A stretch of 34,204 bases of DNA from a virus: the UHGV virus genome UHGV-1976995, one strand, 5' to 3'. Each line of letters begins with the position of its first letter. Position 1 is the first letter of the stretch. The notes below the pieces were generated by a model. It was not told where the DNA came from. It made no database searches and worked only from the letters and a program-made list of their open reading frames with translations. The position numbers were made by a program, and so were the translations under genes. Of this stretch, positions 15,364 to 34,204 are shown piece after piece.

Positions 15364-15687
15364 ATGAAGATGCCAGAAAAACATGACCTGTTAGCCGCCA
15401 TTCTCGCGGCAAAGGAACAAGGCATCGGGGCAATCCTTGCGTTTGCAATGGCGTACCTTCGCGGCAGATATAATGGCGGTGCGTTTACAAAAACAGTAAT
15501 CGACGCAACGATGTGCGCCATTATCGCCTGGTTCATTCGTGACCTTCTCGACTTCGCCGGACTAAGTAGCAATCTCGCTTATATAACGAGCGTGTTCATC
15601 GGCTACATCGGTACTGACTCGATTGGTTCGCTTATCAAACGCTTCGCTGCTAAAAAAGCCGGAGTAGAAGATGGTGGAAATCAATAA
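15364..15687 (+). CDS. S: class I holin, lambda S type, with dual-start MKM motif
   Basis: 107 aa, near-identical to lambda S as I recall it, including the Met1-Lys2-Met3 dual start. Confidence 0.9.
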
Positions 15688-16147
15688 TCAACGTAAGGCG
15701 TTCCTCGATATGCTGGCGTGGTCAGAGGGAACTGATAACGGACGTCAGAAAACCAGAAATCATGGTTATGACGTCATTGTTGGCGGAGAGCTATTCACTG
15801 ATTACTCCGATCACCCTCGCAAACTTGTCACGCTAAACCCCAAACTCAAATCAACAGCAGCCGGACGTTACCAGCTTCTTTTCCGTTGGTGGGATGCCTA
15901 TCGTAAGCAGCTTGGCCTGAAAGACTTCTCTCCCAAAAGCCAGGACGCTGTGGCATTGCAGCAGATTAAAGAGCGTGGCGCTTTACCGATGATTGATCGC
16001 GGTGATATTCGTCAGGCTATCGACCGTTGCAGCAATATCTGGGCTTCACTTCCGGGGGCTGGTTACGGTCAGTTTGAGCATAAGGCTGATAGCCTGATTG
16101 CAAAATTCAAAGAAGCAGGCGGAACGGTCAGAGAGATTGAGGTATGA
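15671..16147 (+). CDS. R: endolysin, lambda R type lytic transglycosylase
   Basis: 158 aa, near-identical to lambda R from memory; overlaps the holin stop. Confidence 0.9.
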
Positions 16148-16581
16148 GCAGAGTCACCGCGATTATCTCCGCTCTGGTTATCTGCATCATCGTCAGCCTG
16201 TCATGGGCTGTTAATCATTACCGTGATAACGCCATGACCTACAAAGAGCAGCGCGATAAGGCCACATCCACAATCGCTGACATGCAGAAGCGTCAACGTG
16301 ATGTAGCAGAACTTGACGCCAGATACACAAAGGAGCTTGCTGATGCTAACGCGACTATCGAAAGCCTCCGTGCTGATGTTTCTGCTGGGCGTAAGCGCCT
16401 GCAAGTCGCCGCCACCTGTGCAAAGTCAACGACCGGAGCCAGCGGCATGGGCGATGGAGAAAGCCCAAGACTTACAGCAGATGCTGAACTCAATTATTAC
16501 CGTCTCAGAAGTGGAATCGACAGGATAACCGCGCAGGTTAACTACCTGCAGGAATACATCAGGACGCAATGCCTTCGATGA
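16144..16581 (+). CDS. Rz: i-spanin Rz
   Basis: N-terminal transmembrane helix then coiled-coil; N-terminal 30 aa match lambda Rz, the remainder diverges. Confidence 0.8.
16343..16528 (+). CDS. Rz1: o-spanin Rz1 (lipoprotein) embedded in the +1 frame of Rz
   Basis: ATG at 16343 with an AGGAG RBS; signal peptide with lipobox VSAC followed by a Pro-rich segment. Confidence 0.6.
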
Positions 16582-28358: not shown

Positions 28359-29663
28359 ATGGCTACGTGGCAACAGGGTATTAATTCTGGTGGTTTTCTG
28401 GCTGGCATCGGTACGCAAAATGAGAATGCGCCAAAGGCAAACGACATTAACGCAACGCTTGGTCTGATCCGCGAAAACAATGAACTGGCTCGCTCAGGTG
28501 CAAATAACGTTGGTCTGACCGCGTTACGTGGTCTGGCTGGAGTTGCTGATATTTATAAGCAGGAACAGCAACAGAAAGCGATTAATGCGTTCAATAAGGT
28601 TCATGCTGATGCATGGGCTTCTGGTGATCCATCGGGACTATTTAAGTTTGCCAAGGAAAATCCAGCGTTTGTTGCGCAGGCACAACAGGCGTTTTCCGGT
28701 CTTAATGATCAGCAACGCAACGATATGGGCGATTTAGCCATGAGGGCTAACGTCGCTCTTTCTCAGGGACCGGAAGCCTACAGTAAATTCATTACTGACA
28801 ACAAGGACAGGTTAAATCGCGTGGGGGCGAATGCTGACTGGATGATTCAGACAGGTATCCAGAATCCAGAGCAGCTATCACACATGCTGACTACTATGTC
28901 TCTCGGTGCACTTGGACCAGAAAAGGCGTTTGCTGTTCAGGATAAGATGGTTGGTCGTGAGATTGACCGAGGCCAGCTGGCAGAGACAATCCGCAGCAAT
29001 CAGGCAGGAGAAGCACTAACAGCTCGAGGTCAGGACATCCAGATACGTGGACAGAACATCAGCGCACAGAATGCTGCTCTTTCCCGAGAAATACAAAGAG
29101 CAGAATTACAAGAAAAGGCTCTGGACAGACAGATAGCCAGAGAAAGCAATCAGTTAAAGCTTGAAGAGCTAAAACAGAAACAGGCAGATGTTCGGCAAAA
29201 GGCTGACATAGCCCGCGCTGACAGGCAGGCCGCCGCTCAGGGTGCAGTTGATACGTTCAGCACCGCGCTTGATTCTCTCAACGAGATAGAGCAAAGCCCC
29301 GGCCTTTCAAAAGCAGTAGGAATTCGCTCAGCGTTTCCGACAGTTCCTGGCTCTGATGCGGCTAACTTTGAAGCAAGGCTCGACACCTTTAAAGCTCAAA
29401 CATTCCTTCCTATGGTGCAGTCCCTGAAGGGTATGGGCGCTCTTTCAGATGCAGAGGGTAAAAAATTATCCGATGCGGTTGGTGCCCTAAGCCCCAAAAT
29501 GAGTGAAAAGGCTTTTCGTGACTCTATCGGAAAGATTAGAAATCAGCTTGAAAGCAAGTTGAGCACTGTTAAAAAACAGTTTGATTATCAGGAGCCGGTG
29601 CAGAATATGCCAGGGCAACAATCTACTACTGGCAGTAACTTTTCTTCGCTATGGGGTGATTAA
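28359..29663 (+). CDS. ejection protein (P22 gp20-like)
   Basis: 434 aa, helical and Gln-rich; AAGGGG RBS; synteny. Confidence 0.7.
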
Positions 29664-31660
29664 TGGCTAAAGCATGGAAAGATGTTATCGCCTCTCCACA
29701 GTATCAGGCGTTAGCACCAGAACAAAAAGCGCAGGCTCAGGAGCAATACTTCAATGAAGTCGTTGCCCCGCAAGCCGGAGAAAATGCAGAGCAGGCTAAG
29801 CAAGCTTTCTATGCTGCCTATCCATTGCCATCTGTGCAGCCAGTGGAGACACAACAACCAGTATCACAGCAACAACCACAGCAAAGTGGATTTATGTCGG
29901 ATCTTGGTGAAGCCGTGAAAGAAACTGGTCGCGGACTGGTGCAGGCTGGCGTGAACGTGGCAAACATACCTGCATCAGTTGCCGATGCTGTAACAAGCGC
30001 GGCGGCATGGGCTGGCGGTAAACTCGGCATTGGCGATGGTACATATCAACCAGCGCCACGAGTAACAACGCAGGGGTTAGAGCAGGACTTTGGCCTTCAG
30101 CAAGGCGCGCTCACTCCACAAACGACAGAGGGAAGGGTATTTGCTGAAGCATTGCCTTACCTCACTCCTGCTGGCGTTGAGAGAGCGGCAGCACAGGCAC
30201 CAACACTTGCTGGTCGAATTGCTCAGGGGGCAACTCGCCTTCTAGCAGAAAACGCAGTTGGATCACTTGCTGCAAATAGTGCGAAAGATGATGCGGAAGC
30301 ACTCGCCACCGATTTAGGCGTTGGCGTTCTGGCTGGCGGTGCTATTAACGCTGCCGGACGTGGATTAGGTGCTGCTTATCGTGGCGTTCGTGGTGCTATT
30401 GCGCCAGAAGCGCAGCAGGCTATCAGATTTGCAGAGCGTGAAGGAGTTCCTCTGCACACCACAGACCTGTTACAGCCTACTTCCCGCGTCGGAAAAATGG
30501 CGCAAACGACAGCAGAAAATATCCCCCTGGCTGGCACAAGCGGAATGAGAGCAACGCAACAGGAAGCGAGAAGCCAGTTGGTTCAGAGATTTGCTGATAA
30601 ATTCGGTGAGTATGATCCAGCGGTTGTTATTGACAGCCTTAAAGCGAAAACATCAGGAATTCGTCGTGCCGCCGGTAATCGACTGGAGCAGGTTCAGAAT
30701 GCTATGGCGGGAATAAACATTCAGCCTGCAAGAGCAATTCAGCAGATTGATACAGAAATATCTAACCTGCAGAAGCTTGGTAAGGTTGCTGATAACGAGA
30801 CTATTTCAAAACTTCAGTCCTATCGTGATGAGCTTGTTCGCAATGCTGGTCCTGATGGTCCGGTAAATCTGGATTTGAAGCAATTAAGCGATCTGCGCAG
30901 CCAGTTCAGAATGGATGTGAAGGGTGAGCGACCAGTGTTACCAAACCGTTCCGATGCTGCCATTCAGCGCGTTTACAAGGCAATGACCGACGATATCAAT
31001 GGTGCCATTGGTCAGAATCTTGGCAACGATACTCTCCGTAAATATCAGCAGGCCAATGCCGTCTACGCTGACGAAGCGGCGAAACTAAAGAATACCAGGC
31101 TGAAGAATGTTCTCATGAAAGGCGACCTGACGCCGGAAGTTGTCAACAACATGCTATTCAGCAAGAACAAATCGGAAATTAAGACGCTGTATAACTCAGT
31201 TGGTCGTGTTGGCAGGGCGCAAATGCGCAATGGCATCATTGGAAAGGCGATGGAGAAATCAGGTGGTTCCCCTGATCAGTTCCTTCGACAGCTTAACATC
31301 CTGCAAAACCAGACTGGCATCACATTTAAGGGGCAGGACGCTGCTTATCTGAAAGGATTGAAAAACTACCTGCAATCCACGCAGCAGGCTGCAAAAGCGG
31401 CAGTAACAACACCAACAGGGCAGCAAACCATCCCGTTCATTATCGGGTATGGGACAGCAATGAACCCGGCGACAACTGGCGCAGCGGTAAGCTACGGACT
31501 TCTTACTCGCGCCTATGAGAGCGAACCATTCAGAAATGCAATGCTCCGAATGGCAAACACACCACGCGGATCGACAGCGTTTGAGAAAGCCATGCAGCAA
31601 GCGCAAAAAGCGATTAATGCACTGACGCAGGGTGCTAAGTCTGATTCGTTGTCAGAATAG
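29663..31660 (+). CDS. ejection protein (P22 gp16-like)
   Basis: 665 aa; ATGA-type overlap with the gp20-like stop; synteny. Confidence 0.7.
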   Translation: MAKAWKDVIASPQYQALAPEQKAQAQEQYFNEVVAPQAGENAEQAKQAFYAAYPLPSVQPVETQQPVSQQQPQQSGFMSDLGEAVKETGRGLVQAGVNVANIPASVADAVTSAAAWAGGKLGIGDGTYQPAPRVTTQGLEQDFGLQQGALTPQTTEGRVFAEALPYLTPAGVERAAAQAPTLAGRIAQGATRLLAENAVGSLAANSAKDDAEALATDLGVGVLAGGAINAAGRGLGAAYRGVRGAIAPEAQQAIRFAEREGVPLHTTDLLQPTSRVGKMAQTTAENIPLAGTSGMRATQQEARSQLVQRFADKFGEYDPAVVIDSLKAKTSGIRRAAGNRLEQVQNAMAGINIQPARAIQQIDTEISNLQKLGKVADNETISKLQSYRDELVRNAGPDGPVNLDLKQLSDLRSQFRMDVKGERPVLPNRSDAAIQRVYKAMTDDINGAIGQNLGNDTLRKYQQANAVYADEAAKLKNTRLKNVLMKGDLTPEVVNNMLFSKNKSEIKTLYNSVGRVGRAQMRNGIIGKAMEKSGGSPDQFLRQLNILQNQTGITFKGQDAAYLKGLKNYLQSTQQAAKAAVTTPTGQQTIPFIIGYGTAMNPATTGAAVSYGLLTRAYESEPFRNAMLRMANTPRGSTAFEKAMQQAQKAINALTQGAKSDSLSE

Positions 31661-31750: not shown

Positions 31751-32236
31751 TTATCTGATGTTACTGCTACTGTTGCATGTTACCGTGTTTCCAAATCCTG
31801 AATTGCAGTTTGTATATGTGTCAACGCGTGTTGGGTAAGGTTGAGTTATAACAGGCTGGCGCGCTTTTTGCTCGATCGCTTGCATTGTGTTTACAGCCTG
31901 ATAATTCAATAAAGCCTGCTGGAATGCTTGGCTTTGTGCTATTTGTTGGGCTTGTTCTTGGCTTTGTAATTGAACATAAAGATTCTGAAGCTCAAGTCTT
32001 GCCTGTGCGTCACTTATCTTGCCTTCATCGACACCTTGCCCGAGCATCTTTGCAGCAAGGACATACAGCTTAGGTGTTGGTGCTGATGCCATGCGTGAGT
32101 CGTTCTTCACACTGGCATCAAGGCAATTAGCCATATCGCTAAGCTTTTGATAGCGTTGTTCGCAACTTGCTTGATAGTCACTTACTTTTGCGCACCCAGC
32201 CAGCAGAAGCGGGATAATTAACAGTGATTTTTTCAT
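31751..32236 (-). CDS. lipoprotein, cargo gene, candidate superinfection-exclusion factor
   Basis: Track ORF 31751..32287 trimmed to MKKSLLIIPLLLAGC (signal peptide with lipobox LAGC); opposite strand to the flanking structural genes; Gln-rich helical middle and Cys-containing C-terminus. Confidence 0.6.
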   Translation of the reverse strand: MKKSLLIIPLLLAGCAKVSDYQASCEQRYQKLSDMANCLDASVKNDSRMASAPTPKLYVLAAKMLGQGVDEGKISDAQARLELQNLYVQLQSQEQAQQIAQSQAFQQALLNYQAVNTMQAIEQKARQPVITQPYPTRVDTYTNCNSGFGNTVTCNSSSNIR

Positions 32237-32270
32237 ATAATTAACTCTCCTTAGTTTTGCGCAGGATACC

Positions 32271-32636
32271 ATGAAAAAAGTTAACATTGGAAACGTACCA
32301 AAGATGCTCGTTCCGCTCTTTGAGAGCGGTACAATTGTGTTTTGTAGAGACTTTCCAGAATGGCAACGCCTGCATCAAAAACTTGGCGTTGACGTGCATG
32401 ACTCGGACGCCAACGGAGCGTCTCATACAATGAGTAGCGAGAATGGTGTTTTGCATGTGATAGGCGTGTTCAATGGCAAACTATCTACTATTGCCCATGA
32501 GTGCGCTCACATGGCATTCGATATCTGCTCAAGGGTAGGTGTTGATGTTGAACCAGGAAGAGCCAACGAGACTTACTGCTACTTAATGAGCAGGCTTGTT
32601 GAGTTCTGCGAGCGACATATCAAAAAGCCGGAGTGA
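32271..32636 (+). CDS. small HExxH-motif protein (putative metallopeptidase-like), cargo gene
   Basis: 121 aa with HECAH at residues 86 to 90 of the track translation; no strong RBS at either candidate start. Confidence 0.5.
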   Translation: MKKVNIGNVPKMLVPLFESGTIVFCRDFPEWQRLHQKLGVDVHDSDANGASHTMSSENGVLHVIGVFNGKLSTIAHECAHMAFDICSRVGVDVEPGRANETYCYLMSRLVEFCERHIKKPE

Positions 32637-32645
32637 CCCGGCTTG
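32624..32645. terminator. hairpin between convergent cargo genes (possible bidirectional terminator)
   Basis: AAGCCGG-AGTGAC-CCGGCTT with A-rich 5' flank and GATTATTACTTTTT 3' flank; the HExxH gene stop lies in the loop. Confidence 0.45.
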
Positions 32646-32649
32646 ATTA

Positions 32650-32829
32650 TTACTTTTTGCTGTCTGGAGTTCGCTTATCCAATACCCAGCCATGACCTGG
32701 CTTTGTTGTTGGTGGAAGCCTTTCGTTGTCCTTGACGGTTGCAAAATTGTCTTTCTTACCGCCGCGTGGGCCAACTTCTTGGTATATTCCGCCGTTTTTT
32801 CCTGTGTTTTCACCTGGTTTTTTCGCCAT
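32650..32829 (-). CDS. YjzC-like small protein (59 aa), cargo gene
   Basis: Track ORF trimmed to the ATG at 32829 behind GAGGT; pattern GENTGKNGGIYQEVGPRGG...ERLPPTTKPGHGW resembles the YjzC-like family as I remember it. Confidence 0.45.
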   Translation of the reverse strand: MAKKPGENTGKNGGIYQEVGPRGGKKDNFATVKDNERLPPTTKPGHGWVLDKRTPDSKK

Positions 32830-32859
32830 GATATACCTCAACATACACCCGTTATTGGG

Positions 32860-32894
32860 CGATTAAATATTGATCTCATTTTATAAGTAGTCAA
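32860..32894 (-). promoter_or_regulatory. candidate promoter for the YjzC-like gene (TTGACT-N17-AATATT)
   Basis: On the minus strand TTGACT, 17-nt spacer, AATATT, about 40 nt upstream of the ATG. Confidence 0.3.
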
Positions 32895-32919
32895 TATGGC
32901 CCAGGTAAATGCAAAAATT

Positions 32920-32944
32920 AACCCACCTTCAGGTGGGTTTTTTG
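32920..32944. terminator. hairpin overlapping the mnt stop codon; terminator-like in both orientations
   Basis: AACCCACC-TTCA-GGTGGGTT followed by TTTTTTG on the plus strand and AATTTTTGCATTT on the minus strand. Confidence 0.5.
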
Positions 32945-33180
32945 TACAAATCCTTCAGCGTATCAAACACCATCTTCTTAACAAGTTCAGACTGCTCATC
33001 AGCGATGCGTTCCGCATCGTCTCGATAGCCTGAAATTTTGGATGGCTTTGATACAGCATCAGTCACTATCTGAACTAATTCTGAATTAAGAGAGCGGCCA
33101 TTGGATTTGGCTCGCTGTTTTAGTTTTTCCTTTAATTCGTAAGGTAGCCGCAGATTAAATTGCGGGTCATCTCTTCCCAT
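32929..33180 (-). CDS. mnt: Mnt repressor (Arc/MetJ ribbon-helix-helix family)
   Basis: MGRDDPQFNLRLPYELKEKLKQRAKSNGRSLNSELVQIV...DDAERIADEQSELVKKMVFDTLKDLYKK matches P22 Mnt closely from memory. Confidence 0.85.
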   Translation of the reverse strand: MGRDDPQFNLRLPYELKEKLKQRAKSNGRSLNSELVQIVTDAVSKPSKISGYRDDAERIADEQSELVKKMVFDTLKDLYKKPT

Positions 33181-33243
33181 TCTTGATGCCTCGCTTTTGT
33201 GAGTGGATCGGCATCTTATTATCTGCTGGTTGCATCCTCAATA

Positions 33244-33258
33244 AGACCACAGTGGTCT
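33244..33258. promoter_or_regulatory. candidate Mnt operator: 15-bp perfect dyad AGACCAC-A-GTGGTCT
   Basis: Perfect inverted repeat between mnt and the tailspike gene, next to a candidate leftward promoter TTGAGG-N17-TAAGAT; analogous in form to the P22 Mnt operator. Confidence 0.5.
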
Positions 33259-33326
33259 CTTTGTTTGATTAATAATGCATCACTGTGGCAATGCTGCGGC
33301 GATTCCTTGTATCTGGAGCAAATTAA

Positions 33327-34204
33327 ATGACAGACATTACAGCCAATGTTGTAGTGAGTATGCCTTCGCAACTCTTCACTATGGCGCGTTCTTTTAAAGC
33401 CGTAGCCAATGGCAAAATTTATATCGGTAAAATTGACACTGACCCGGTAAATCCTGAAAACCAGATTCAGGTTTATGTAGAGAACGAAGACGGTTCTCAC
33501 GTTCCTGTTTCGCAACCAATCATCATTAACGCTGCTGGATATCCGGTATATAACGGACAGATTGCCAAATTCGTAACCGTGCAAGGCCATTCTATGGTTG
33601 TTTACGATGCTTATGGCACTCAGCAGTTTTATTTTCCAAATGTATTAAAATACGATCCAGATCAGTTTGGCCCAGACTTCAAAGAGCAGTTATCTCAATC
33701 AGGAGCATACATTAATGATGATTCAAAAGGTGATGCATTAATTGGGGTAAGGCAGCCATTTACCGGGGCTGTAACTATAACTCAGCATGAAAACAATGCT
33801 CTTTTCTTAAATGTAAAACAATTTGGAGCAATTGGGGATGGGAAATATCATCCATTATCTGAGTGGTTTTCTTCAATTTCTGAAGCAAAATCCTTATATC
33901 CTTTTGTTGACTCATTATCTCAGTCAATAGACTGGGCCGCGTGGCAAGCTGCCCTTAACACAGGAAAGGTTATTTATGGTACTGATAATGCGTATGTAAT
34001 AACGGATACGTTAACACCTGTTTCTGGTGGTGGGATAATTGGTCTTGGTGTGGGCAAATGGGTCTCTGGATATACTGCAACATTTGCTCCTGATATTACC
34101 ACAGGGACCACATTCCTGATGTACGGTGTAGGAAATAAAAAATATACTGTAGATTGTGTTTCTAATATGGATGTTAGTGGTGGTGTGGTTTCTAATCCAT
34201 CTTC
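33327..34204 (+). CDS. tailspike protein, 5' partial (P22 gp9-type head-binding domain plus a different receptor-binding domain)
   Basis: Hand-translated open frame from the ATG at 33327 (absent from the track because it has no stop in the window); first about 110 aa ([11 protein letters not shown]...[12 protein letters not shown]...VLKYDPDQ) match the P22 gp9 head-binding domain; downstream sequence is unrelated to the P22 endorhamnosidase. Confidence 0.85.

What the first reader, a model, noticed from the sequence alone, without database searches (positions are those of the whole stretch)
31751..33326. Cargo island between ejection genes and tailspike: lipoprotein, HExxH protein, YjzC-like protein and an orphan mnt
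In P22 this slot holds the immI region (sieA, mnt, arc, ant). Here only mnt is recognisable. arc and ant are absent and three unrelated small genes sit in mixed orientation, each with its own apparent start and separated by terminator-like hairpins. This reads as a small autonomous accessory system carried in a structural operon, and it is the most likely place in the window for an undescribed exclusion or defence function expressed from the prophage.
Basis: partly seen in the sequence, partly recalled or inferred. Interest (0 to 1): 0.75.

Follow-up and report, generated by a model that had tools for sequence, protein, structure and literature searches.

The report
Swappable lipoprotein gene in P22 sieA slot
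This is the ordinary, mosaic immI region of a P22-like E. coli prophage: two of the three "foreign" genes are P22's own, and only an uncharacterised lipoprotein gene replaces the known exclusion gene sieA, which makes it a testable candidate for a new way of blocking incoming phages.

Summary
The four ORFs, two terminator hairpins and the lack of arc/ant are real. The reading as a three-gene cargo island is wrong.

- **Not foreign:** window 32243-33027 (HExxH gene = hkcC, YjzC-like gene = orf59a, part of mnt) is 97% identical to phage P22 itself.
- **Not a unit:** the lipoprotein occurs without hkcC/orf59a in most loci, and they occur without it in P22, HK620 and hundreds of E. coli genomes.
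- **The lipoprotein (31751-32236, -)** is the only replaced part. It sits where sieA (P22) or hkcB (HK620) sit, behind the same putative PsieA promoter and Shine-Dalgarno sequence. The junction falls between the Shine-Dalgarno sequence and the start codon.
- **A cassette slot:** at least 13 unrelated genes occupy this position in P22-like contigs, and 12 have a hydrophobic N-terminus.
- **Distribution:** the family (phrog_6067, no Pfam) lay between genes 16 and 9 of a P22-like prophage wherever flanking genes were identifiable. It is in 186 of 5426 complete E. coli genomes.
- **Most likely function (inferred, untested):** a prophage-expressed outer-membrane lipoprotein that excludes superinfecting phages.
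- **hkcC** is a minimal HExxH…E zincin-like protein, usually paired with convergent orf59a, also in siphovirus prophages.

Modest interest.

The parts
29663..31660 (+). Gene 16 homologue (ejection / DNA transfer protein, 665 aa). It forms the left border of the slot.
   Evidence: ORF. It is 33.5% identical to P22 gp16 over 582 aa. PGAP annotates it as a lytic transglycosylase domain protein next to 'phage DNA ejection protein'.
31751..32236 (-). Lipoprotein cassette, 161 aa. It has the signal peptide MKKSLLIIPLLLAG|C and Ala at +2. The mature part is a helical domain, a Gln-rich long helix, a Pro-rich linker and a Cys-bracketed C-terminal beta-hairpin.
   Evidence: - Matches phrog_6067 at E 2.8e-110, function unknown. 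No Pfam, NCBIfam or PADLOC family.
- 94 homologues found; those with source names are all Enterobacterales, nearly all called hypothetical.
- G14 is nearly invariant; C15, C25, C38 and C154 are invariant.
- AF2 model: pLDDT 63 overall, about 80 for residues 18-100.
- pN 0.09 against pS about 0.8 versus the Citrobacter copy.
- No relation to SieA or HkcB by hhalign.
32247..32301 (-). Conserved expression segment upstream of the lipoprotein gene. It contains the Shine-Dalgarno sequence CTAAGGAG, a TGnTATCCT extended -10-like element, and the stretch annotated in P22 as the putative promoter PsieA (TTGGTA-17-TTTCAT). It overlaps the 5' end of hkcC on the other strand.
   Evidence: - One mismatch to P22 from the Shine-Dalgarno sequence upstream, over the roughly 90 nt compared, in the stretch where P22-pbi annotates PsieA.
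- The junction with the cassette lies between the Shine-Dalgarno sequence and the start codon.
- In P22, 85 bp upstream of sieA is enough for SieA function (PMC10883804).
32271..32636 (+). hkcC, 121 aa: a minimal HExxH...E zincin-like protein, in the same orientation as the late operon.
   Evidence: - Same gene as HK620 hkcC and 97% identical at the DNA level to P22.
- phrog_1365, function unknown.
- G49, H76, E77, H80 and E100 are invariant in 63 divergent relatives. None of the 63 has a Pfam hit.
- AF2 model with pLDDT 89.
- Foldseek hits to many uncharacterised phage proteins, a few labelled SprT-like or metalloprotease.
32625..32644 (.). Bidirectional intrinsic terminator between the convergent genes hkcC and orf59a. 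It corresponds to 't mnt' in the P22-pbi record and 'tORF59A' in HK620.
   Evidence: -12.1 and -12.6 kcal/mol, z -3.2 and -2.5. Annotated as a terminator.
32650..32829 (-). orf59a, a 59-aa Gly/Lys-rich protein of the YjzC type.
   Evidence: - 98% identical to P22 orf59a. phrog_3202.
- Pfam YjzC scores 19.4 bits, below the 25-bit cut-off.
- More distant homologues carry PF14168, and UniRef names some 'YjzC family protein'.
32866..32894 (-). Promoter-like site (TTGACT-17-AATATT) upstream of orf59a.
   Evidence: Consensus scan only, 9 of 12 matches. Not evidence of function.
32920..32939 (.). Bidirectional terminator that overlaps the mnt stop codon. It corresponds to 'tMNT' in the HK620 annotation.
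   Evidence: -16.9 and -14.8 kcal/mol, z -4.5 and -2.7. Annotation.
32929..33180 (-). mnt, an 83-aa Arc-fold repressor with the Mnt C-terminal tetramerisation domain. This is the Gln6 variant.
   Evidence: Pfam Arc at 2.8e-22 and Repressor_Mnt at 2.2e-18. 64 of 83 residues are identical to P22 Mnt.
33213..33258 (-). Pmnt-like promoter (TTGAGG-17-TAAGAT, 33213-41) next to the palindromic operator AGACCACAGTGGTCT (33244-58). The rightward Pant hexamers are degraded here.
   Evidence: - Positional alignment with the P22 Pant/Pmnt/Omnt region. The hexamers were read directly from the sequence.
- Operator and repressor covary across loci.
33327..34204 (+). Tailspike gene (gene 9 homologue; the head-binding domain is at the start). 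It forms the right border and runs off the window.

Best explanation
The interval is the immI region of a P22-like (Lederbergvirus) prophage of E. coli, built from three independent modules rather than one system.

**1. A backbone shared with P22 and HK620.** It consists of hkcC, orf59a and mnt with its operator. Here arc, sar and ant are cleanly absent.

**2. A single-gene cassette in the sieA slot.**
- A 161-aa lipoprotein gene is joined, between the Shine-Dalgarno sequence and the start codon, to the same leftward expression segment (putative PsieA) that precedes sieA in P22 and hkcB in HK620.
- Proposed mechanism:
  - The gene is transcribed from the prophage, against the late operon.
  - The product is exported and lipidated at Cys15.
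  - With Ala at +2 it is sorted to the inner leaflet of the outer membrane.
  - Its helical domain and long helix reach into the periplasm.
  - There it stops superinfecting P22-like phages at DNA delivery, acting on the needle, secondary-receptor or gp7/gp20/gp16 conduit step. It would be a functional analogue of inner-membrane SieA, working from the outer-membrane side.

**3. hkcC and orf59a.**
- hkcC is a small cytoplasmic zinc-metallopeptidase-like protein read in the late-operon direction.
- The convergent orf59a (YjzC-like) is read in the prophage direction.
- The two share a bidirectional terminator and often travel together. Their function is unknown.

**Shown:** gene structures, homologies, junctions, distribution, and independence of the modules.

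**Inferred:** expression in the lysogen, lipidation and sorting, and the exclusion function.
For: **Modules and junctions**
- Window 32243-33027 is 97% identical to P22.
- In a four-way alignment, identity with P22 and HK620 starts at the Shine-Dalgarno sequence. To the left lie three unrelated genes.
- The upstream segment differs from P22 by one base from the Shine-Dalgarno sequence upstream, over the roughly 90 nt compared.
- 85 bp upstream of sieA suffices for SieA-mediated exclusion (PMC10883804, read).

**The slot is a cassette site**
- 79 hkcC-bearing contigs carry 12 unrelated leftward genes.
- A search with the 22-nt junction gave 105 distinct contexts and 13 families. Twelve of these have a hydrophobic N-terminus.

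**The lipoprotein is an autonomous module**
- It has at least four kinds of right-hand neighbour and at least two gp16 types on its left.
- It is the only gene between gene 16 and the tailspike gene in Yersinia ruckeri and Morganella prophages.
- Where flanking genes could be identified, the context was always a P22-like prophage. Leavitt et al. report the same restriction for sieA.
- No type A sieA was detected in any of the 85 lipoprotein loci.

**It is a real envelope protein**
- The lipobox is conserved, and two further conserved Cys pairs fit an oxidising compartment.
- Selection is strongly purifying.

**The slot is used for exclusion in relatives**
- P22 carries SieA there.
- BTP1 carries the antisense RNA STnc6030 at the gene 16/tailspike junction (PMC7067206).

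**hkcC**
- H76, E77, H80 and E100 are invariant.
- The AF2 model is confident.
- The weak fold and sequence hits are dominated by zinc proteases.
Against: - There are no expression data for this prophage, and PsieA itself is only 'putative' in P22.
- In the commonest lipoprotein context (38 loci) only the TGnTATCCT element and the Shine-Dalgarno sequence are kept, not the annotated -35/-10 hexamers.
- The lipoprotein has no detectable similarity to SieA or HkcB. Its profile hits, apart from phrog_6067 and one weak coiled-coil match, include no family with an annotated exclusion function, and it has no PADLOC hit.
- Position in a slot is circumstantial evidence. Other prophage lipoproteins, such as lambda Bor, serve host fitness rather than phage exclusion.
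Confidence: 0.6

Rival explanations
1. One reading: the lipoprotein, the HExxH protein and the YjzC-like protein together form one autonomous accessory (defence) system that has displaced the immI genes.
For: The three genes are adjacent, compact and separated by terminators. None has a known function.
Against: - hkcC and orf59a are present in P22 and HK620 at 97% identity alongside sieA or hkcB.
- Only 17 of 85 lipoprotein loci carry hkcC and orf59a.
- The lipoprotein stands alone in Yersinia and Morganella prophages.
- Only 13 of 5426 E. coli genomes match at least 80% of the interval in one place, against 186 with the lipoprotein gene and 888 with some part of the interval.
- There are no PADLOC hits.
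Confidence: 0.03
2. The lipoprotein is a lysogenic-conversion factor that benefits the host in ways unrelated to phage exclusion, for example serum resistance, envelope robustness or adhesion, as with lambda Bor. The slot is simply a permissive site for morons.
For: - The slot holds many unrelated small envelope proteins.
- The gene is found in clinical E. coli, including an O25b:H4-ST131 strain.
- It has no similarity to SieA or HkcB, and no profile hit to a family annotated with an exclusion function.
Against: - Wherever flanking genes were identifiable, the family lay in the gene 16/gene 9 interval of a P22-like prophage. A general fitness factor would be expected to spread to other prophage types.
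- The only characterised occupants of this interval, SieA and BTP1 STnc6030, act against phages.
Confidence: 0.2
3. The lipoprotein serves the phage's own lytic cycle, for example by helping lysis or release, or by preventing progeny virions from wasting their DNA on lysing cells or debris. It would not be a prophage-expressed function.
For: It lies next to the ejection genes. Its architecture, a lipid anchor followed by a long helix and a Pro-rich linker, loosely recalls periplasm-spanning proteins. According to PMC10883804, sieA itself is upregulated during induction.
Against: - The gene is antisense to the late operon, so late transcription would oppose it.
- Many P22-like phages lack it or carry unrelated genes there, so it is not a core lytic function.
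- The window has ORFs of the size and arrangement of a separate lysis cassette near 15364-16581 (I did not annotate them).
Confidence: 0.1
4. hkcC and orf59a form a two-gene antagonistic module. orf59a is made in the lysogen, and the hkcC zincin is made from late transcripts and neutralises it or its target, giving a state-dependent exclusion or anti-defence switch.
For: - The convergent pair with a shared bidirectional terminator is conserved down to 43% hkcC identity.
- It recurs inside the tail operons of siphovirus-type prophages.
- It was found at 206 of 234 (redundant) hkcC sites.
- The catalytic residues of hkcC are invariant.
Against: - Each gene also occurs alone. The hkcC relative P0142 lies between terminase genes.
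- orf59a relatives lie near holin genes without a zincin.
- In L093 orf59a is replaced by other small genes.
- In P22, sieA alone accounts for the exclusion that was first seen with a sieA-orf59a-mnt plasmid.
- There are no functional data at all.
Confidence: 0.12

Closest known systems
Phage P22 immI region (sieA - hkcC-like ORF - orf59a - mnt - arc - sar - ant), between genes 16 and 9
   Same: - Same position and the same flanking genes.
- hkcC, orf59a and the first part of mnt are 97% identical in DNA.
- The same putative PsieA segment, Shine-Dalgarno sequence and terminators are present.
   Different: - sieA is replaced by an unrelated lipoprotein gene.
- arc, sar and ant are absent, and the Pant hexamers are degraded.
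- Mnt is only 64/83 identical and pairs a Gln6 residue with a different operator.
SieA superinfection exclusion protein (types A, B, C; Leavitt et al. 2024, PMC10883804)
   Same: - Same slot, same orientation against the late operon, and the same upstream expression segment.
- Where context could be determined, the gene lay in P22-like prophages of several Enterobacterales genera.
- It is an envelope protein of about 160 aa.
   Different: - No sequence relation (hhalign probability 0.2%).
- It has a lipobox signal peptide rather than three or four transmembrane helices, so it is predicted to be an outer-membrane lipoprotein, not an inner-membrane protein.
- The FxRYPxEAxxFNK motif is absent (read directly from the sequence).
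- Its function is untested.
Coliphage HK620 hkcB-hkcC-'hkcD' region (AF335538)
   Same: hkcC, the orf59a-type ORF and the terminators are essentially identical. HK620 also lacks arc and ant.
   Different: HK620 carries hkcB, a 109-aa protein with an N-terminal hydrophobic segment, in the slot, and only a remnant of mnt. The window has the lipoprotein and an intact mnt.
Escherichia phages Gally (OV696608) and vB_EcoP-720R6, and Salmonella phage VSe13
   Same: They carry the same lipoprotein (96-98% identical) after the same type of gene 16. Gally and 720R6 also have mnt before the tailspike gene.
   Different: In Gally, hkcC and orf59a are replaced by a single 139-aa gene with a lipoprotein-like N-terminus, GALLYPH_14. 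All of these genes are annotated only as hypothetical.
Phage-encoded exclusion lipoproteins (T5 Llp, phi80/N15 Cor, S. thermophilus Ltp); named from my own knowledge, plus the reference list of PMC10883804
   Same: The general logic is the same: a phage- or prophage-encoded lipoprotein in the envelope blocks entry of incoming phage DNA.
   Different: The profile searches gave no hit to a family with an annotated exclusion function; I did not align these three proteins directly. The targets of those proteins (FhuA, or the tape measure protein) do not exist for P22-like podoviruses.
Minimal zincin / SprT-like HExxH metallopeptidases (for hkcC)
   Same: - HExxH plus an invariant Glu 20 residues downstream.
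- A beta-sheet followed by the active-site helix and a second helix.
- Weak hits to zinc proteases, and Foldseek hits to viral proteins labelled SprT-like.

Membership tests
P22-type immI region (locus) | Lies between the gene 16 and gene 9 homologues of a P22-like genome | tested here: met
P22-type immI region (locus) | mnt with a palindromic operator next to a leftward promoter | tested here: met
   Pfam Arc and Repressor_Mnt. Operator at 33244-33258 and a Pmnt-like TTGAGG-17-TAAGAT.
P22-type immI region (locus) | arc, sar RNA and ant (the antirepressor circuit) | tested here: not met
   No Ant or Arc gene in the window. No sar match in Rfam. Mnt's operator joins the gene 9 upstream region directly.
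SieA superinfection exclusion proteins | Sequence homology to SieA types A/B/C, including the FxRYPxEAxxFNK motif | tested here: not met
   hhalign against P22 SieA gave probability 0.2%. No SieA hit in the window. The motif is absent on direct reading. Types B and C were not tested by sequence.
SieA superinfection exclusion proteins | Polytopic inner-membrane protein (three or four transmembrane helices) | tested here: not met
   The only hydrophobic stretch is the N-terminal signal peptide with its lipobox. The rest is polar and helical.
SieA superinfection exclusion proteins | Encoded in the gene 16/gene 9 interval of P22-like prophages, read leftwards from PsieA | tested here: met
SieA superinfection exclusion proteins | Blocks DNA injection by P22-like phages | not testable with these tools
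   This needs plating, K+ efflux and DNA-entry assays.
Bacterial lipoproteins (signal peptidase II substrates) | A basic n-region, a hydrophobic h-region and the lipobox [LVI][ASTVI][GAS]C, conserved across the family | tested here: met
   The window protein reads MKKSLLIIPLLLAG|C. C15 is invariant and G14 nearly invariant in 32 sequences.
Bacterial lipoproteins (signal peptidase II substrates) | Lipidation and outer-membrane sorting (no Asp at +2) | not testable with these tools
   The +2 residue is Ala, Val or Thr in the family. Outer-membrane sorting is inferred from the E. coli +2 rule (my knowledge).
Known anti-phage defence systems (PADLOC) and PHROG families annotated as superinfection exclusion | Profile match to any model | tested here: not met
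   No PADLOC hit for any of the four proteins. The three unknown proteins match PHROG families of unknown function, apart from one weak lipoprotein match to a minor tail protein family (E 0.0093).
Zincin (gluzincin-type) metallopeptidases, for hkcC | HExxH motif plus a third zinc ligand (Glu) on the following helix, conserved across the family | tested here: met
   H76, E77, H80 and E100 are invariant in 63 relatives at 23-44% identity.
Zincin (gluzincin-type) metallopeptidases, for hkcC | Zincin fold, or membership of a curated peptidase family | tested here: inconclusive
   - AF2 pLDDT 89.
- PDB profile hits to myroilysin and astacins at E 0.04-0.8.
- Foldseek hits to SprT-like viral proteins at E of about 1e-4.
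- No Pfam hit.
YjzC family (PF14168), for orf59a | Score above the Pfam gathering threshold | tested here: not met
   19.4 bits against a cut-off of 25.
YjzC family (PF14168), for orf59a | Linked to bona fide members through intermediate sequences | tested here: met
   A phmmer search reaches proteins with precomputed PF14168 hits, and some homologues are named 'YjzC family protein' by UniRef.

The most novel reading that the evidence does not exclude
The conserved promoter and Shine-Dalgarno junction next to hkcC is a cassette-exchange site. P22-like phages use it to swap at least 13 unrelated small envelope proteins, each a distinct superinfection-exclusion device. The lipoprotein was the most frequent cassette in my (lipoprotein-enriched) samples and is in 3.4% of complete E. 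coli genomes. It would block DNA delivery from the outer-membrane/periplasmic side, a mechanism different from inner-membrane SieA. The neighbouring hkcC/orf59a pair would be a second, mobile module (a late-expressed zincin against a lysogen-expressed YjzC-like protein) that moves between podovirus and siphovirus structural operons.
Probability: 0.3. Interest if true: 0.55.

Novelty: new member of a known kind. Interest (0 to 1): 0.33.

Why it matters
If the lipoprotein excludes phages, it adds a second, mechanistically different blocker of the P22-type ejection pathway. That pathway's trans-envelope conduit (gp7/gp20/gp16) is still poorly understood, and escape mutants would map the step that is blocked.

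The slot survey also gives a ready-made list of about a dozen small envelope proteins expressed from one conserved signal. This is a compact test set for how prophages diversify exclusion, and it bears on phage therapy against E. coli, Salmonella and their relatives.

For annotation, the result is corrective. hkcC and orf59a are part of the canonical P22 immI backbone, not cargo.

Tried and rejected
**Profile searches.** Pfam, NCBIfam and PADLOC gave nothing above threshold for the lipoprotein, hkcC or orf59a. The weak GspK, lantibiotic and DUF2802 hits are compositional noise.

**Solved structures.** A PDB profile search found nothing for hkcC with the 19-sequence profile, and only coiled-coil noise for the lipoprotein.

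**Fold searches.**
- The afdb50 fold library was not available.

**Literature.** Full-text searches for 'hkcC' returned only unrelated acronyms. Searches for 'orf59a' returned only the SieA paper. I found no paper on the lipoprotein.

**Other hypotheses tested and dropped.**
- The lipoprotein as a divergent SieA or HkcB: rejected by hhalign.
- Linkage of the lipoprotein to one gp16 type, which would have suggested co-adaptation: not seen. At least two gp16 C-terminal types flank it.
- A hidden non-coding RNA: Rfam found only a sub-threshold terminator-like hit.
- Fused domains in longer hkcC relatives: none found.

**Sampling limits.**
- A second IMG/VR scan seeded with a siphovirus-type hkcC returned almost only P22-like contigs again. 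I therefore could not measure how common the hkcC/orf59a pair is outside P22-like phages.
- The cassette counts are biased, because many loci were fetched using the lipoprotein itself and some contigs were fetched twice. Only the number of distinct families is robust.


Full report
**1. What is in the sequence**

Four small ORFs lie between the gene 16 homologue (29663-31660, +) and the tailspike gene (ATG at 33327):
- 31751-32236 (-), 161 aa from the MKKSLL start, with the lipobox LLAG|C.
- 32271-32636 (+), 121 aa, containing HECAH.
- 32650-32829 (-), 59 aa.
- 32929-33180 (-), 83 aa, Mnt.

NCBI's PGAP annotation calls exactly these genes in E. coli CH10508, whose chromosome matches the interval at 100% identity. 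The integrase gene intS follows the tailspike gene, so the window is a P22-like prophage.

Two hairpins with T-runs on both strands (32625-32644 and 32920-32939) are more stable than shuffled sequence. The interval between gene 16 and the lipoprotein gene has no such structure.

No arc, ant or sieA exists anywhere in the window.

**2. Two of the three 'foreign' genes are P22's own**

- A megablast search against the phage records shows that window 32243-33027 is 97.1% identical to P22, P22-pbi and many relatives.
- In the P22-pbi record this stretch holds PsieA, an unannotated ORF, the terminator 't mnt', orf59a and the 3' part of mnt.
- In HK620 the same ORFs are named hkcC and 'hkcD', and the hairpins are annotated as tORF59A and tMNT.
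- The junction of mnt with gene 9 without arc or ant is also present, at about 93% identity, in Salmonella phages ST160, SE1 and others.
- Some part of the interval matches in 888 of 5426 complete E. coli genomes.

The statement that only mnt is recognisable is therefore wrong.

**3. The lipoprotein is a single-gene cassette in the sieA slot**

*The junction.*
- A four-way alignment shows that the window, P22 and HK620 are nearly identical from the Shine-Dalgarno sequence of the leftward gene onwards to the right (CTAAGGAG on the minus strand, + strand 32247-32254).
- To the left they carry three unrelated genes: sieA, hkcB and the lipoprotein gene.
- The upstream segment differs from P22 by one base from the Shine-Dalgarno sequence upstream, over the roughly 90 nt compared. 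It includes the stretch annotated as PsieA and a TGnTATCCT extended -10-like element.
- Leavitt et al. showed that sieA with 85 bp of upstream DNA is sufficient for exclusion (PMC10883804).

*The protein.*
- It has no relation to SieA or HkcB.
- It matches only phrog_6067, of unknown function.
- It is annotated only as hypothetical in phages Gally, vB_EcoP-720R6 and VSe13.

*The family.*
- I found 94 homologues; those with source names are all Enterobacterales: Escherichia, Citrobacter, Serratia, Cronobacter, Klebsiella, Pectobacterium, Yersinia, Morganella, Providencia and Tatumella.
- The lipobox Cys is invariant, and so are Cys25, Cys38 and Cys154.
- Non-synonymous divergence from a Citrobacter copy is 0.09, while synonymous sites are saturated.

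*Independence from its neighbours.*
- In 85 loci fetched with the family profile, the nearest recognisable right-hand neighbour was:

| Nearest recognisable right-hand neighbour | Loci |
|---|---|
| an mnt-like gene | 44 |
| hkcC plus orf59a | 17 |
| a Gally-type 139-aa gene | 8 |
| ant, or arc/mnt genes on the opposite strand | 11 |
| nothing recognised | 5 |

- At least two gp16 C-terminal types flank it on the left.
- In Yersinia ruckeri and Morganella prophages it is the only gene between gene 16 and the tailspike gene.
- It is in 186 of 5426 complete E. coli genomes, always on the chromosome. Only 13 of the 5426 genomes match at least 80% of the 1667-bp interval in one place.

**4. The slot is a cassette hot-spot**

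- Among 79 IMG/VR contigs carrying hkcC, the leftward gene behind the conserved junction falls into 12 mutually unrelated families.
- Searching the 22-nt junction TATCCTGYGMAAAACTAAGGAG gave 105 distinct contexts and 13 families: the lipoprotein, SieA type A, HkcB and ten others.
- Twelve of the 13 have a hydrophobic N-terminus, either a lipobox or another hydrophobic N-terminal segment.
- The counts are biased by how the loci were fetched. The number of families is not.
- In BTP1 the same gene 16/tailspike junction encodes an antisense RNA that gives immunity to BTP1 (PMC7067206).

**5. hkcC**

- The AF2 model is confident (pLDDT 89): a small beta-sheet followed by two helices.
- An exhaustive profile search found 514 representative clusters of proteins of about 120 aa.
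- In 63 divergent members, only G49, H76, E77, H80 and E100 are invariant. This is the HExxH...E signature of gluzincins. None of the 63 hits Pfam.
- A PDB profile search gives sub-threshold hits, mostly to zinc proteases.
- Foldseek against viral models finds many uncharacterised phage proteins, a few of them labelled SprT-like or metalloprotease.

I therefore call it a zincin-like protein, not a member of any curated peptidase family. It is read in the direction of the late operon, and its first codons overlap the leftward promoter segment.

**6. orf59a and its link to hkcC**

- orf59a scores below the Pfam YjzC threshold. It connects to true PF14168 members through intermediates.
- hkcC homologues at 57-63% identity in Klebsiella oxytoca, Rosenbergiella and a metagenome sit in siphovirus-type prophages, between the tail-tube genes and the tape-measure gene.
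- Each is followed within 13 nt by a convergent 59-aa ORF that is 76-81% identical to orf59a.
- Relatives at 43-44% identity also keep this partner.
- In the loci I hold, 206 of 234 (redundant) hkcC sites have the convergent partner.
- The link is not obligate:
  - A 34% relative of hkcC lies alone between terminase genes.
  - orf59a relatives lie near holin genes with no zincin.
  - In L093 other small genes replace orf59a.

The pair is a frequently linked, mobile module of unknown function. It is not specific to this window.

**7. mnt**

- The protein has both the Arc fold and the Mnt C-terminal domain.
- The palindrome AGACCACAGTGGTCT (33244-33258) stands where P22 has its operator GGTCCACGGTGGACC, next to a Pmnt-like TTGAGG-17-TAAGAT. 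The rightward Pant hexamers are degraded (read directly from the sequence).
- Across the loci, Gln6-type Mnt always goes with the (A/C)GACCAC half-site and His6-type Mnt with GGTCCAC (or GGTTCAC).
- With no ant to control, this Mnt can only autoregulate or act in trans on the ant genes of incoming phages that carry the matching operator. This is an inference.

**8. Mechanism and rivals**

- **Best supported.** The lipoprotein is transcribed from the prophage through the conserved segment, lipidated, and sorted to the outer membrane (Ala at +2; the E. coli sorting rule is from my own knowledge). It acts in the periplasm against DNA delivery by superinfecting P22-like phages.
- **Basis.** The support is positional and comparative: the same slot, orientation and expression signal as sieA; a P22-like prophage context wherever flanks were identifiable; an envelope location; and no type A sieA detected in any of the 85 lipoprotein loci.
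- **Caveat.** There is no direct evidence of expression or function, and the fold is uninformative.
- **Rivals.**
  - A host-fitness lipoprotein of the Bor type.
  - A role in the phage's own lytic cycle.
  - For hkcC/orf59a, an antagonistic module that depends on the state of the prophage.

**9. Verdict**

The region is a known kind of locus with a known logic. The new elements are:
- an uncharacterised lipoprotein family as an alternative occupant of the sieA slot;
- the finding that this slot exchanges many unrelated envelope-protein genes at a junction between the Shine-Dalgarno sequence and the start codon;
- the mobility of the hkcC/orf59a pair.

These give testable hypotheses rather than surprises, so interest is modest.

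Noticed in passing
window 32247-32268 (- strand motif TATCCTGCGCAAAACTAAGGAG); loci L089-L168 and L170-L287: At least 13 mutually unrelated genes sit behind the same 22-nt promoter/Shine-Dalgarno junction in P22-like contigs: the lipoprotein, SieA, HkcB and ten others of 62-149 aa. The junction falls between the Shine-Dalgarno sequence and the start codon. Twelve of the 13 products have a hydrophobic N-terminus.
   Followed up: yes
window 32271-32829; L288, L290, L294-L296, L291-L293, L298-L300: hkcC and orf59a form a convergent pair with a shared bidirectional terminator. The pair is also found in siphovirus-type prophages of Klebsiella oxytoca and Rosenbergiella, between the tail-tube and tape-measure genes. 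orf59a is better conserved (76-81%) than hkcC (57-63%). Each gene can also occur alone.
   Followed up: partly
window 33166-33180 (Mnt N-terminus) and 33244-33258 (operator); mnt loci among L001-L169: Mnt and its operator come in two covarying types. Gln6 (MGRDDPQFNLRL) goes with AGACCAC-N-GTGGTCT, and His6 (MARDDPHFNFRM) goes with GGTCCAC-N-GTGGACC. No mixed combinations were seen among about 37 loci with a clear palindrome. The 'terminator-like' hairpin at 33244-33258 is this operator.
   Followed up: partly
window 32271-32636: hkcC belongs to a large family with no Pfam model: 514 cluster representatives at E below 1e-3. The proteins are about 120 aa, and only G49, H76, E77, H80 and E100 are invariant. 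Some members carry Lys/Glu-rich C-terminal tails or a 166-aa N-terminal extension (P0191), none with a known domain.
   Followed up: partly
L002 2271-2690 (phage Gally GALLYPH_14); L059, L072 and similar loci: In Gally-type genomes, hkcC and orf59a are replaced by a single 139-aa gene with a lipoprotein-like N-terminus (MKRIIGVVAGAILLSGC...). Those phages therefore carry two divergently transcribed lipoprotein-type genes between gene 16 and mnt.
   Followed up: no
L093 4380-5390: In some P22-like contigs the position of orf59a is taken by other genes: a 74-aa membrane protein, a 61-aa coiled-coil ORF, a 105-aa secreted protein and a different Arc/Mnt-like repressor. The right side of hkcC is therefore variable as well.
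   Followed up: no
L001 4640-4870 (P22) versus window 33270-33326: Upstream of gene 9, P22 has the motif AAAATTCACCGTAGCCA twice, bracketing about 110 bp that the window and HK620 lack. This looks like an insertion or duplication specific to P22.
   Followed up: no
L013-type loci (38 of the lipoprotein loci), 120 nt upstream of the lipoprotein start: In the commonest lipoprotein context, an mnt-like gene ending ...FDTLKTMYSNNK and a hairpin (GGAAAC...GTTTCC) lie directly upstream. Only the TGATATCCT element and the Shine-Dalgarno sequence are shared with the window. This suggests that the extended -10-like element, rather than the annotated PsieA hexamers, may be the functional promoter.
   Followed up: no
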